Assembly: GCA_038060895.1 (NCBI GenBank)
Contig: JBBTCT010000014.1
Location: 92,649 to 137,621, forward strand
Source of the DNA: Planctomycetota bacterium
GTDB taxonomy: Bacteria; Planctomycetota; MHYJ01; WSZJ01
Direction of reading: 5' to 3'
Length of the DNA: 44,973 nt
The notes under the pieces are model-generated. The model was not told where the DNA came from, made no database searches, and was given only the letters and a program-made list of their open reading frames with translations. Shown here one piece after another: positions 30,308 through 33,024 of the stretch. The position numbers were made by a program, and so were the translations under genes. Numbering within the stretch: position 1 is the first letter of the stretch; each line of letters begins with the position of its first letter.

Positions 30308-30440
30308 CGAGGGGTCTCCGGCGCGCGGGTGAGGGCTTTGACGATAGCAACAGGGGGGCCACGCATCAACGGCAGATGGAATTCCGAGCGGTCCCGTTGC
30401 GTTGCAGGGAGTGGCGCGCGTCCCTTACGATGCGCCGACC

Positions 30441-32348
30441 ATGCGCCTCCTTCCCCTGGCCGTCGTGCTGCTCGCCGCTTCCCGTGCCTTCGCGCAGGAG
30501 GGGGACGAGGTGCCTCCTGAACTGGCGGCGCTGGAAGGGCGGATCGTGTCGATCACGCCCGCCGAGGCGAAGATGGGGGATACGGTCGTCGCGAAGGTCG
30601 AGCTTGTGTCGCCGAAGGGGTGGCACATTTACGGGCTGGCGAAGGGGACGAGCGGCGCGCCGACGGAATTCAAGGTGACGGAGGGGCCGTTCCGGGTCGG
30701 TGCAGGAGTCAAGGAGCCGGCGCCCAAGGTCCATGACCACACGTTTGAGAACGGGTACCGGGAAAACTACTCGTACCACGAGGGCACTGTCGTCTTCGAA
30801 GTTCCGCTGGAAGTGACCGGGGACGCGAAGCCGGGCAACACGAAGGTGACAATCTCGGTGCACACGATGTTGTGCACGATGGCCGTCTGCCTGGACGAGG
30901 CGGATACGACGTATTCGGCGACGATGAAGATTGTCGAGGGCGGCGTCGCGAAGCCGCCGACGGTGACCGATGGCGCGGCGCAGGGCGGGGGAGGATCTCC
31001 GCCGAAGGCGGCCCACGATCCCAAGAAGGGCGGATTCTGGGCGTTCATCGGGCTCTCCATCCTGACCGGGCTGGCCACTCTCGTCACTCCGTGCGTCTTT
31101 CCCATGATCCCCGTGACGATCTCCTTCTTCACCAAGCAGGCCAGCGGCGCGCGAAGCGGCACCTTCGCGCTGGCTGCGGCCTATGGGATCGGCATCGTCG
31201 TGAGCTACACGGCGATCGGCCTCATCGTCAGCGCGGCGCTTGGCGTTGAAGGCGCGAATGATTTCGCCAAGAACGCCTGGGTCAATATCACGATCTGCAT
31301 CATCTTCGTCATCTTCGCGTTCTCGCTTTTCGGGTGGTTTGAGCTCGCATTGCCCGGCTTCATCACCGACAAACTCTCCGCGCAGGGGAAAAGCGGTTAC
31401 ATCGGCGCCCTGCTCCTGGGACTCACGTTCTCGATCACGGCCTTCACCTGCGCGGCGCCCTTCCTCGGGTCGCTCCTGCTCCTCTCGGTCAATGGCGACT
31501 GGACGTGGTCGCTCTTTGGGTTCCTCACCTACTCGGGCACTATGGCCGTGCCTTTCATCGCTCTAGGCCTCTTCCCCAGCCTTCTCAAGGCGCTTCCGCG
31601 GTCCGGGGGCTGGCTGAATTCGGTCAAGGTCGTTCTGGGATTCGTCGAGCTCGCCGCGGCCTGCAAGTTCCTCGCGAACGCCGACGACCAGTGGAACTGG
31701 CACTTCGTATCGCGCTCCTACGTCCTGGCTTTCTGGACTGCCTGCTCCGTCGCAGCCGCGCTCTACCTGTTCCGCGTCTTCCGGCTCAAGGACGAAGAGC
31801 CGATACCCGAGATCGGGGTCCCGCGCATGCTCTGGGGAATCGTCTTTGCAGGATTCGCCCTCTTTTGCGCCAGCGGACTTTTCGGACGCCATCTCGGGAT
31901 CGTCGAAGCGCTCCTGCCGCTTCCTGAGCAGAAGATGTGGCTCGGCGAGGGTCCGTCGGGGGGAAGTGAAACCGGCGGCGGGCACGTGGAGTACGGCTCG
32001 TACTCGCAGGCGCTAGCGGCGGGAAAAGAGCAGAAGAAACCGGTCTTTCTCGAATTCACGGCGTTCAGCTGAACGAATTGCCGCGCGCTGGAGAACACGG
32101 TGCTGGTCAGCCCGGTGATTCTCAAGGAGCTGGAGCGGTTCGTCTGGCACAAGCTGTGGACGGATTCCAACAAGCCCCACGGGGACGAGAACAGGGCGGC
32201 AAAGGAGTCACTGGGAGGCGGAGCGCTGCCACTGCTCGTTCTTTTCGACGGCGCAGGCCGCGAAATTTCGCGGCTGCCCGATGCTGACAAGGCAGACGTC
32301 CTGATCACCGAATCACAATTGCTCGAAGCGCTTCGCAAAATCCGTTAA
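30441..32348 (+). CDS. dsbD: DsbD-like thiol:disulfide interchange protein, predicted selenoprotein (UGA 32070-32072 = Sec, UxxC in the C-terminal thioredoxin-like domain)
   Basis: Signal peptide, N-terminal domain (GWHIY, C-x4-C), TM domain TPCVFPMIP and FTCAAP, LPRSGGWLN.VK.VLGF. ORF 30402..32072 and ORF 32100..32348 are in the same frame, joined by FLEFTAFS-TGA-TNCRALE. Confidence 0.88.
32085..32103 (+). promoter_or_regulatory. putative bacterial SECIS hairpin for dsbD UGA
   Basis: GCGCUG-[GAGAACA]-CGGUGC stem-loop (two G-U pairs); the G-initiated loop begins 18 nt after the UGA; folded by eye. Confidence 0.45.
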
Positions 32349-32380
32349 AAGTCCGCGAGCGCAAACCAGGAGGAACGACG

Positions 32381-32704
32381 ATGGGCAACGCAAAGGAACT
32401 GTCGGACGACGGATTTGAAGCGGAAGTAGGCGCCAAGGGCGTCGCGCTGGTGGACTTCTGGGCGACGTGGTGCGGCCCGTGCAAGAAGGTCGCACCGATC
32501 GTGGAGGAGCTGGCCGGCCAATTCACCGGCAAAGCCCGCATTTACAAGATGGACGTCGACCAGAACCAGGGAACGCCCGCGCGGTTCGGGGTGATGTCGA
32601 TCCCGACGGTCGTGCTCTTCAAGGACGGCAAGGAAGTCGATCGAGTGGTGGGCGCGCAGTCGAAGGCGTTCTTTGAAGACAAACTCAAAAAGCTGATCGG
32701 ATAA
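32381..32704 (+). CDS. trxA: thioredoxin
   Basis: LVDFWATWCGPCK, VMSIPT..LFKDG; AGGAGG at 32368-32373. Confidence 0.97.
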   Translation: MGNAKELSDDGFEAEVGAKGVALVDFWATWCGPCKKVAPIVEELAGQFTGKARIYKMDVDQNQGTPARFGVMSIPTVVLFKDGKEVDRVVGAQSKAFFEDKLKKLIG

Positions 32705-32706
32705 AA

Positions 32707-33024
32707 ATGGCGCTGACGACGATCTCGGATGCCGACTTTCAGCAGGCGGTCGCCACGGGCGTGACGGTCGTGGACTTCTGGGGAGACGGCTGACATGCCT
32801 GCACGAAAATGGCTCCCGTGCTGGAGCAGCTGGCGGCGCAGGTGGCGGGGAAAGCGAAGATCGTGAAGGCGAAAATCGACGACGCGACGGACTCCGCGTC
32901 GGGCCTCGGGGTCATGGCCCTGCCCACGTTCGTGTTCTTCAAGGACGGGAAGGAAATGGACCGGCAGATCGGGACGGCGTCGCTCGACGCGATGAAGAAG
33001 AAGGTCGACAAGATCACCGGGTAG
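32707..33024 (+). CDS. thioredoxin-fold selenoprotein (UGA 32791-32793 = Sec; U-H-A-C motif), 105 aa
   Basis: ATG 32707, 2 nt after the trxA stop, reads MALTTISDADFQQAVATGVTVVDFWGDG-TGA-HACTKMAPVLEQLA...VMALPTFVFFKDG in one frame and aligns end-to-end with the adjacent TrxA. Confidence 0.88.
32797..32843 (+). promoter_or_regulatory. putative bacterial SECIS hairpin for the Sec-thioredoxin UGA
   Basis: Upper stem GCUCC-[CGUGCU]-GGAGC (32812-32827), loop starting 23 nt after the UGA with G at loop position 2; possible lower stem GCCUGC/GCAGGU; folded by eye. Confidence 0.55.

What the first reader, a model, noticed from the sequence alone, without database searches (positions are those of the whole stretch)
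32040..32348. DsbD gamma domain with U-T-N-C instead of C-x-x-C
Seen: KKPVFLEFTAFS-TGA(32070-32072)-ACG-AAT-TGC gives U-T-N-C-RALENTVL..., continuing in frame through KLWTD and ALP (cis-Pro loop) to TAA 32346-32348. A hairpin (32085-32103) with a G-initiated loop lies 18 nt downstream. Established: DsbD gamma domains have FT..xCxxC..ME at this position. Inference: a 635-aa membrane selenoprotein whose Sec would sit outside the cytoplasm; stopping at the UGA would leave a CcdA-like alpha-beta product without the gamma domain.
Basis: partly seen in the sequence, partly recalled or inferred. Interest (0 to 1): 0.82.

Follow-up and report, generated by a model that had tools for sequence, protein, structure and literature searches.

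The report
Selenocysteine DsbD membrane reductase gene
This gene encodes a membrane electron-transfer protein (DsbD type) whose apparent stop codon almost certainly inserts selenocysteine at the active site; the type is already known, but it turns out to be the commonest DsbD form in the Planctomycetota genomes sampled and is cut short in gene predictions.

Summary
An ORF from ATG 30441 runs to TGA 32070-32072 and continues in frame (U-T-N-C) to TAA 32346-32348, giving 635 aa. The product has a signal peptide, a DsbD_N domain, a DsbD_TM domain with 8 TM segments, and a thioredoxin-like gamma domain that spans the TGA.

The genome holds tRNA-Sec, SelA, SelB and SelD. The TGA sits at the first Cys of CxxC in all 26 relatives' loci and all 20 phylum-sample loci checked; other homologues have Cys there. 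The 91 codons after the TGA are under purifying selection (dN/dS 0.36-0.39). The AlphaFold model of the domain (pLDDT 92) matches E. coli DsbD-gamma best. A metatranscriptome contig from another study bridges the codon unchanged.

A larger hairpin (32085-32130, GGUC loop) is the better SECIS candidate, but weak on its own.

Verdict: a real selenoprotein and a new member of the published "thiol:disulfide interchange protein" UxxC family.

New here:
- In an even sample of the phylum, 53 of 82 DsbD matches that span the site carry the TGA.
- Sec and Cys forms switched repeatedly.
- The gene sits in a conserved cluster with a Cys-thioredoxin and a second selenoprotein, a Sec-thioredoxin (32707-33024).

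The parts
30441..32348 (+). Whole dsbD-like selenoprotein gene: ATG to TAA, 635 aa, with one in-frame UGA.
   Evidence: Full-length match with '1 TGA' in relatives.
30441..30497 (+). Predicted signal peptide (MRLLPLAVVLLAASRAFAQ).
   Evidence: Read from the translation. Inference only; no signal-peptide program was run.
30567..30911 (+). Alpha domain (DsbD_N-like, residues 43-157) with Cys145 (30873-30875) and Cys150 (30888-30890).
   Evidence: PF11412 scores 21.1 bits, E 3.2e-4, below the 25-bit cut-off. The orthologue L015 scores 26.3 bits. Both Cys are invariant in A2.
31038..31886 (+). Beta domain: 8 hydrophobic segments with Cys218 in TM1 (31092-31094, TPCVFP) and Cys337 in TM4 (31449-31451, FTCAAPF).
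   Evidence: PF02683 DsbD_TM, 110.4 bits. Match to CcdA structure 5vkv. Hydropathy. Both Cys invariant in A2.
31977..32345 (+). Gamma domain: thioredoxin fold with U544-T-N-C547 and the cis-Pro loop ALP (Pro597, 32229-32231).
32070..32072 (+). UGA read as selenocysteine (U544), at the N-terminal position of the CxxC motif.
   Evidence: An RNA-library contig covers it unchanged.
32085..32130 (+). Candidate bacterial SECIS hairpin with apical loop GGUC at 32105-32108.
   Evidence: -15.8 kcal/mol, loop 32 nt after the UGA. One of 10 in-gene control positions did as well. The GUGCUGGUCAGC core is identical in the 4 same-genus orthologues. It is not significant alone.
32381..32704 (+). Thioredoxin TrxA (WCGPC, no signal peptide), 32 nt after the dsbD stop; the likely cytoplasmic electron donor.
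   Evidence: PF00085 at 2.8e-29. TIGR01068 at 116 bits, above the 96.8 cut-off. Adjacent to DsbD in relatives.
32707..33024 (+). Second selenoprotein of the cluster: thioredoxin with W-G-D-G-U-H-A-C, UGA at 32791-32793.
   Evidence: TIGR01068 at 81.8 bits, below the cut-off. '1 TGA' is conserved in 5 same-genus genomes at the same place in the cluster.

Best explanation
The gene encodes a full-length DsbD-type transmembrane protein-disulfide reductase. Its parts are a signal peptide, an alpha domain, an 8-TM beta domain and a thioredoxin-like gamma domain. UGA 32070-32072 is decoded as selenocysteine by tRNA-Sec and SelB, so the gamma active site is U544-x-x-C547.

By analogy with E. coli DsbD (recalled knowledge, not tested here), electrons would flow in this order:
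1. A cytoplasmic thioredoxin; the two trx genes immediately downstream are the obvious candidates.
2. The membrane Cys pair (Cys218/Cys337).
3. The gamma Sec/Cys pair.
4. The alpha Cys pair (Cys145/Cys150).
5. Periplasmic targets.

Sec occupies the N-terminal, nucleophilic position, so the oxidised gamma domain would carry a selenenylsulfide instead of a disulfide.

Shown: the reading frame, the domain architecture, the Sec/Cys column, the Sec machinery and conservation. Inferred: actual Se insertion, the direction of electron flow and any catalytic advantage.
For: - Frame and motif.
- Domains: DsbD_TM 1e-31 and Thioredoxin_7 1.9e-8, the latter spanning the UGA. DsbD_N 3.2e-4. NCBIfam DsbD PRK00293 aligns residues 94-610. 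Eight hydrophobic segments.
- Gamma fold: AlphaFold2 pLDDT 92.1, pTM 0.86. The best Foldseek hits are E. coli DsbD-gamma 2fwe, 1uc7 and 1vrs_D. The profile search also hits DsbD-gamma chains at about 1e-10.
- Sec machinery in the same genome: tRNA-Sec at 71.7 bits, called tRNA-SeC(tca) by ARAGORN; SelB wing domain 9e-21; SelA 2e-134; SelD 1e-108, itself with one in-frame TGA.
- TGA is otherwise a normal stop. It ends 1250 of 2308 open frames of at least 500 codons.
- Conservation of the codon: 26 of 26 relatives' loci and 20 of 20 phylum-sample loci have TGA exactly at the first Cys. Cys forms share the same FTGxxCxNC context.
- Selection downstream: the 91 codons after the UGA have dN/dS 0.36-0.39, equal length and no frame breaks in the 4 same-genus orthologues.
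- SECIS-like hairpins: these average -13.4 kcal/mol at 31 Sec sites against -9.3 at 310 control positions in the same genes (Mann-Whitney p 4e-4; the sequences are related, so this overstates). One relatives' subgroup keeps a 6-bp stem 100% paired, with C-G in 5 sequences and U-A in 3.
- Independent library: an RNA-library contig from a different study covers 31949-32269 with 0 differences.
Against: - There is no direct evidence of selenium in the protein.
- The window's own SECIS candidate is not more stable than shuffled sequence (z 0.04). Its loop lies 32 nt from the UGA, near the far end of the 16-37 nt range I used (recalled from bSECISearch). With only 4 close orthologues it shows no compensatory change.
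- Rfam has no match here, though I know of no bacterial SECIS model in it.
- The protein scores below NCBIfam's DsbD cut-off (155.7 against 330). The alpha domain is just under Pfam's cut-off (21.1 against 25).
- The RNA-library contig may derive from contaminating DNA, and contigs cannot show translation.
- The independent DNA runs that were laid do not cover the codon.
Confidence: 0.93

Rival explanations
1. The UGA is leaky by design. When selenium is scarce, translation stops there and yields an alpha-beta (CcdA-plus-alpha-like) protein without gamma. Two products with different activities would then exist, and selenium supply would set their ratio. This adds to the best explanation rather than excluding it.
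For: Termination competes with Sec insertion at bacterial UGA-Sec codons in general (recalled knowledge). The truncated form is a complete DsbD_N plus DsbD_TM unit. The SECIS candidate is weak.
Against: Nothing measured here. Separately encoded CcdA-like proteins of 230-260 aa exist in several relatives (matches to residues about 200-415 only), so a truncated DsbD is not needed to supply that function.
Confidence: 0.15
2. The UGA is decoded as cysteine (or another residue) rather than Sec, for example by a Sec-like tRNA with anticodon UCA charged with Cys and delivered by SelB.
For: ARAGORN calls a second 'tRNA-SeC(tca)' at G000:C1:472898-472990. Such Cys-recoding tRNAs have been described in other bacteria (recalled; not looked up).
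Against: The second call is 75% G+C, has a mismatched acceptor stem, and is not among the 9 Rfam tRNA-Sec matches, so it is probably a false positive. SelA and SelD are present and SelD itself carries a UGA, which indicates a working Sec pathway.
Confidence: 0.03
3. The TGA is a true stop, a pseudogene lesion or an assembly error, and the downstream thioredoxin-like segment is untranslated.
For: This is how gene callers treat it (P0002). Table 11 gives only an 82-aa ORF from GTG 32100 that lacks the redox motif.
Against: The same codon at the same column appears in 46 checked loci from different species. dN/dS is 0.36-0.39 and the 91-codon length is preserved downstream. The fold is complete only when read through. 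The sequence is identical in a contig from another study.
Confidence: 0.02

Closest known systems
E. coli DsbD (protein-disulfide reductase; alpha, beta and gamma domains; solved gamma domains 2fwe, 1uc7 and the alpha-gamma complex 1vrs)
   Same: The order of domains is the same. A Cys pair sits in TM1 and TM4. The C-terminal thioredoxin fold has its redox motif at the same place.
   Different: The active site is U-T-N-C instead of C-x-x-C. Identity in the gamma domain is only about 22-24%. The protein scores below the NCBIfam DsbD subfamily cut-off. The motif context FTxxxUxNC resembles the Bacteroides 'exported cytochrome c biogenesis-related' domain 3f9u (8.5e-18) more than the enterobacterial DWCxxC context.
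[quoted passage not shown]
   Same: A Trx-like domain carries Sec at the first position of UxxC, with many Cys homologues. The family is reported in Syntrophus and two Geobacter species (tables of PMC1794560), as 22 GOS sequences (table of PMC2398784), and in the 2022 and 2026 reviews. I recall cd02953 as the CDD model 'DsbD gamma'; no call confirmed that.
   Different: I could not obtain the representative sequence, so direct homology and whether published members are full-length alpha-beta-gamma proteins are untested. Here PF13098 scores 21.8 bits (below 27) and PF13899 scores 34.7. No passage I saw mentions Planctomycetes for this family ('planctomycet' occurs 0 times in PMC13188914 and PMC9312934).
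TsoB, the rhodanese/DsbD fusion-like selenoprotein (NCBIfam NF045694)
   Same: It is a selenoprotein that contains a DsbD-type membrane domain. It is the best NCBIfam hit by E-value (1e-47).
   Different: The score is 162.5 against a cut-off of 805. The match covers only the TM domain (residues 199-415). TsoB's motif is UxxxxU with two Sec (table of PMC13188914). There is no rhodanese domain here.
CcdA / ScsB-type thiol-disulfide transporters
   Same: The same DsbD_TM core; CcdA structure 5vkv aligns to residues 206-404.
   Different: CcdA lacks the alpha and gamma domains. The window's protein would resemble alpha plus CcdA only if terminated at the UGA.
Selenocysteine-containing thioredoxins (Trx, UxxC; listed in PMC13188914)
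   Same: The neighbouring gene 32707-33024 is of this kind.
   Different: The motif is WGDG-U-HA-C rather than WCGPC. Its placement in one cluster with a Sec-DsbD was not mentioned in any passage I read.

Membership tests
DsbD (alpha-beta-gamma protein-disulfide reductase) | N-terminal periplasmic alpha domain with a redox Cys pair, behind a signal peptide | tested here: met
   PF11412 DsbD_N covers residues 43-157, E 3.2e-4, 21.1 bits (cut-off 25). The orthologue L015 scores 26.3 bits. Cys145 and Cys150 are invariant in A2. The signal peptide is read by eye only.
DsbD (alpha-beta-gamma protein-disulfide reductase) | Membrane beta domain (DsbD_TM) with conserved Cys in TM1 and TM4 and 8 TM segments | tested here: met
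   PF02683 at 110.4 bits. Cys218 (TPCVFP) and Cys337 (FTCAAPF) are invariant. Eight hydrophobic segments by Kyte-Doolittle.
DsbD (alpha-beta-gamma protein-disulfide reductase) | C-terminal thioredoxin-fold gamma domain with a C-x-x-C redox motif | tested here: met
   The fold is met. The motif is present as U-x-x-C, that is Sec in place of the first Cys.
DsbD (alpha-beta-gamma protein-disulfide reductase) | Score above the NCBIfam DsbD subfamily model NF001419 cut-off | tested here: not met
   155.7 bits against a cut-off of 330. This is a distant DsbD-family member, not the enterobacterial subfamily.
DsbD (alpha-beta-gamma protein-disulfide reductase) | Transfers electrons from cytoplasmic thioredoxin to periplasmic partners | not testable with these tools
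   The only hint is context: trxA lies 32 nt downstream, and the pairing is conserved.
Bacterial selenoprotein (UGA-Sec decoding) | In-frame UGA aligned with Cys in homologues, with the ORF conserved beyond it | tested here: met
Bacterial selenoprotein (UGA-Sec decoding) | tRNA-Sec, SelA, SelB and SelD in the genome | tested here: met
Bacterial selenoprotein (UGA-Sec decoding) | SECIS stem-loop shortly after the UGA, with G in the apical loop | tested here: inconclusive
   A candidate lies at 32085-32130 with a GGUC loop. It is not better than shuffles alone. As a set, the Sec sites fold better than in-gene controls. Covariation is seen only in a relatives' subgroup.
Bacterial selenoprotein (UGA-Sec decoding) | Selenium actually incorporated | not testable with these tools
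   Needs 75Se labelling or mass spectrometry.
Published 'Thiol:disulfide interchange protein' selenoprotein family (UxxC) | Trx-like domain (PF13098 / cd02953) with UxxC | tested here: inconclusive
   UxxC is met. PF13098 scores 21.8 bits (cut-off 27) and the related PF13899 scores 34.7. cd02953 could not be searched.
Published 'Thiol:disulfide interchange protein' selenoprotein family (UxxC) | Sequence homology to the representative WP_011366075.1 | not tested
   The sequence could not be obtained with these tools.
TsoB (NF045694) | Score above cut-off, rhodanese fusion, UxxxxU motif | tested here: not met
   162.5 against 805 bits, TM domain only. The motif differs.

The most novel reading that the evidence does not exclude
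In Planctomycetota the main route that carries reducing power into the cell envelope depends on selenium. The Sec form of DsbD is the majority, possibly ancestral, form across the phylum. It is encoded together with a dedicated cytoplasmic Sec-thioredoxin. Electrons would then cross the membrane through a selenenylsulfide / disulfide / selenenylsulfide relay. Lineages have switched between Sec and Cys many times, perhaps tracking selenium supply.
Probability: 0.3. Interest if true: 0.6.

Novelty: new member of a known kind. Interest (0 to 1): 0.4.

Why it matters
(1) Annotation. Gene callers cut these proteins at the UGA, and NCBIfam has no model for them. The phylum's DsbD therefore appears in databases as a gamma-less protein, and its Sec-thioredoxin neighbour as a 71-aa fragment.

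(2) Biology. In an even sample of 200 other Planctomycetota genomes, 53 carry a Sec form. That is 53 of the 82 matches spanning the site. Periplasmic disulfide reduction in much of this phylum would therefore depend on selenium.

(3) The Sec-versus-Cys question. DsbD is one of the best-characterised thiol-disulfide relays. A family with at least 6-11 natural Sec/Cys switches gives matched pairs for asking what Sec buys at a defined step.

Tried and rejected
- A regex scan of the whole window for further U..C-type motifs was swamped by spurious frames in this G+C-rich DNA. I dropped it. Only the Sec-Trx at 32791, already seen, looked real.
- Rfam on 31900-32400 gave two chance hits on the minus strand (E 3-4.2).
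- The first metagenome scan, with the single protein, found no relative.
- The second metagenome scan, with alignment A2, gave 580 relatives. All 80 kept are Cys forms of at most 41% identity, so they gave no close sequences to test SECIS covariation in the window's own subgroup. Ranking by tblastn may disfavour UGA forms, so this is not evidence that Sec forms are rare in metagenomes.
- A single consensus SECIS for all Sec forms was rejected. The hairpins sit at different offsets in different subgroups, with loops 18-36 nt after the UGA.
- The Maribellus hit of the pattern scan (L043) was not confirmed by tblastn and is treated as chance.
- Runs X3 and X7 (DNA) do not cover the UGA, so I draw no conclusion from them.
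- Complex prediction, the protein atlas and the representative search were not used. No claim here needed them.
- Supplementary tables were closed. S9 Table of PMC4807772 (selenoprotein candidates of two planctomycetes) and Table S1 of PMC2398784 may already list DsbD-like selenoproteins. This could lower the novelty of the phylum-level claim.
- The papers were read only as 'find' passages and tables and as search listings.
Full report
**What is in the sequence.** On the + strand an ORF starts at ATG 30441 (an alternative TTG lies at 30402) and reaches TGA at 32070-32072. The bases around the TGA read TTC AGC TGA ACG AAT TGC CGC. The frame stays open to TAA 32346-32348. Read with TGA=U, the product has 635 residues with U544-T-N-C547, followed by KLWTD and the ALP loop. 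Under table 11 the only ORF in the downstream part starts at GTG 32100, after the redox motif.

**Architecture.**
- Pfam finds DsbD_TM at residues 200-411 (1e-31) and Thioredoxin_7 at 520-603 (1.9e-8). The thioredoxin-like domain therefore straddles the TGA.
- The N-terminal 195 residues match DsbD_N at E 3.2e-4 (21.1 bits, cut-off 25). The same-genus orthologue scores 26.3 bits.
- A Kyte-Doolittle scan gives eight hydrophobic segments between residues about 197 and 485. Cysteines lie at 145, 150, 218, 337, 544 (U) and 547, plus three others in TM segments.
- C145, C150, C218 (TPCVFP) and C337 (FTCAAPF) are invariant among ten close relatives.
- NCBIfam's DsbD model aligns residues 94-610 but scores 155.7 bits against a cut-off of 330. 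The best hit by E-value, the selenoprotein TsoB, covers only the membrane domain and is far under its cut-off.

**Does the read-through complete a thioredoxin fold?** Yes.
- A 27-sequence alignment of the domain (A1) has T, the U/C column and the second C invariant, and the cis-Pro is nearly invariant.
- Its profile hits the Bacteroides 'exported cytochrome c biogenesis-related' domain 3f9u (8.5e-18) and several DsbD-gamma chains at about 1e-10.
- AlphaFold2 on A1 gives pLDDT 92.1 and pTM 0.86, with a beta-alpha-beta thioredoxin pattern.
- Foldseek ranks E. coli DsbD-gamma first (2fwe, 1uc7, 1vrs_D; TM about 0.75).

**Is the UGA selenocysteine?**
- The genome (G000, 86.5% complete) has a tRNA-Sec at 71.7 bits, above the 47-bit gathering score. 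ARAGORN calls it tRNA-SeC(tca).
- It also has a SelB wing domain in a 670-aa frame, SelA and SelD, which itself contains one in-frame TGA.
- TGA is not reassigned genome-wide. It ends 1250 of 2308 open frames of at least 500 codons, and Trp has its own CCA tRNAs.
- In 60 related genomes, 26 fetched loci flagged '1 TGA' all have it at the first Cys of the CxxC motif. A further such match, G028:C107, was not fetched.
- The full-length relatives G016 and G052 have FTGFTCLNC and FTGATCTNC at that place.
- The 91 codons after the UGA are the same length in the four same-genus orthologues, without frame breaks, at dN/dS 0.36-0.39. dS is 0.6-1.1, so partly saturated.
- A contig from an aquifer metatranscriptome, from a study other than the probable source, covers 31949-32269 with no difference. 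Another contig bridges the dsbD stop and the trxA start. Such contigs may contain DNA carry-over and say nothing about translation.

**SECIS.**
- I searched for single hairpins with a 3-14-nt apical loop that has a G in its first two positions and lies 16-37 nt after the UGA. These criteria are recalled from bSECISearch.
- That search gives 32085-32130 with loop GGUC (32105-32108), at -15.8 kcal/mol. One of 10 control positions in the same gene did as well.
- I recall that the E. coli fdhF SECIS also has a GGUC apical loop. That is a lead from memory, not a test.
- Over 31 distinct Sec sites the best hairpin averages -13.4 kcal/mol, against -9.3 at 310 in-gene controls (Mann-Whitney p 4e-4). 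The sequences are related, so this overstates.
- The hairpins sit at different offsets in different subgroups.
- In the subgroup with the motif N-R-G-T-[VI]-L, a 6-bp stem is paired in 48 of 48 cells. One pair is C-G in 5 sequences and U-A in 3 (11 of 500 shuffles reach this). On the tree the U-A forms are not one clade.
- A second subgroup shows GGGAAAG/CUUUCCC, GGGCAAG/CUUGCCC and GGACAAG/CUUGUCC.
- For the window's own subgroup only four sequences exist. The core GUGCUGGUCAGC is identical in all four, and no compensatory change is seen.
- The SECIS is therefore plausible but not proven for this gene.

**Distribution.**
- A pattern for F-x-E-F-T-[GA]-x-x-U-x-N-C over one genome for each of 185,579 species found 16 places. 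Fifteen are in MAGs labelled Planctomycetota, Planctomycetales or Candidatus Brocadiia. The sixteenth (Maribellus) was not confirmed.
- In 200 further genomes drawn evenly from the phylum, 100 have a match at E of 1e-30 or better.
- Of the 103 match rows, 82 reach past the site. Of these, 53 have exactly one TGA and 29 have none (my hand count).
- I fetched 20 of the 53, and all 20 have FTxxxUxxC. I fetched 20 of the 29, and all have Cys.
- A maximum-likelihood tree of 69 beta-plus-gamma sequences (47 Sec, 22 Cys) needs 11 changes of state, at least 6 of them forced by well-supported branches. The rows were chosen by state, so the ratio is not representative. One identical row was dropped, and loci L023, L026 and L034 were left out by my filters.
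- The 80 best relatives in JGI metagenomes are all Cys forms of at most 41% identity, with FTGYTCTNC-type motifs.

**Gene cluster.**
- Thirty-two bases after the dsbD stop lies a thioredoxin with WCGPC (32381-32704).
- Two bases after that gene's stop codon lies a second selenoprotein gene, 32707-33024. It encodes a thioredoxin with W-G-D-G-U-H-A-C, the UGA at 32791-32793.
- The order dsbD(Sec), trx, trx(Sec) recurs on the same contigs in five same-genus genomes.
- Two more distant genomes have a Sec-Trx next to a Sec-DsbD.
- The Cys-DsbD of G016 has a Cys-Trx beside it.
- Neither thioredoxin has a signal peptide by eye, so either could be the cytoplasmic donor. That is inference.

**Mechanism proposed.** By analogy with E. 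coli DsbD, electrons pass from thioredoxin to the beta Cys pair, then to gamma, then to alpha, then to periplasmic targets. The order of electron flow is recalled. The title of 1vrs names the disulfide-linked alpha-gamma complex. Sec544 takes the place of the exposed, attacking Cys of gamma. The expected effect of Sec, namely a better nucleophile and leaving group and a selenenylsulfide in the oxidised state, is general selenoprotein chemistry and was not measured.

**Comparison with what is known.**
- A selenoprotein family called 'Thiol:disulfide interchange protein' (UxxC, PF13098, representative WP_011366075.1) is listed in the 2022 and 2026 reviews.
- It had three members in 2006, from Syntrophus aciditrophicus, Geobacter metallireducens and G. 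uraniumreducens.
- It had 22 sequences in the GOS data, as 'Trx-like 2, cd02953'.
- I recall cd02953 as the DsbD-gamma model. I could not obtain the representative sequence, so whether the published members are full-length DsbD proteins is open.
- Three searches found nothing on a planctomycete Sec-DsbD: selenoprotein + DsbD + selenocysteine, selenoprotein + Planctomycetota, and selenocysteine / Planctomycetes / selenoprotein / SelB.
- The one planctomycete selenoprotein paper names fdhA and fmdB in the passages I saw. Its candidate table is a closed supplement.

**Verdict.** This is a real selenoprotein gene (confidence 0.93) and a new member of a known kind. The added value is the phylum-wide prevalence, the repeated Sec/Cys switching, the conserved cluster with a Sec-thioredoxin, and systematic truncation in gene predictions.

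Noticed in passing
window 32707-33024 (+), UGA at 32791-32793: A second selenoprotein gene: a thioredoxin with WGDG-U-HA-C. Table 11 reads it only as a 71-aa fragment from 32809. It directly follows a normal WCGPC thioredoxin (32381-32704). '1 TGA' is conserved at this place in 5 same-genus genomes. The hairpin after its UGA is not better than shuffles.
   Followed up: partly
L021:3535-3600(-) and L026:910-975(+); L023:2935-3804(+): Some relatives carry extra gamma-like thioredoxin domains with their own U-x-x-C beside the Sec-DsbD, for example FLEFTGES-U-MAC and FLEFTGAG-U-LVC. G050 has three in tandem; the middle one has lost both redox residues (D..P).
   Followed up: no
G000:C2:48628-49548 (-), locus L011: The genome's SelD (selenophosphate synthetase) match contains one in-frame TGA, so it is probably itself a selenoprotein.
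   Followed up: no
G000:C1:472898-472990 (+): ARAGORN calls a second tRNA-SeC(tca) here. It is 75% G+C, has a mismatched acceptor stem, and is not among the Rfam tRNA-Sec matches. It is probably a false call, but it could be an odd UCA tRNA.
   Followed up: partly
G000:C22:196109-196184 (-): ARAGORN reports a tRNA of undetermined identity with a four-base anticodon call (tatg).
   Followed up: no
L028 (G001:C275) and L036 (G006:C159): In two same-genus genomes, the DsbD beside the trx / Sec-trx pair is a divergent Sec form (FTADW-U-LTC, 36-38% identical, on a very long shared branch) rather than the orthologue of the window's gene.
   Followed up: no
window 30441-32072 as predicted protein P0002; relatives P0003-P0009: Public gene predictions of this protein and of its 58-75% identical relatives end at the UGA and carry no thioredoxin Pfam domain. 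One is named 'hypothetical protein'.
   Followed up: yes
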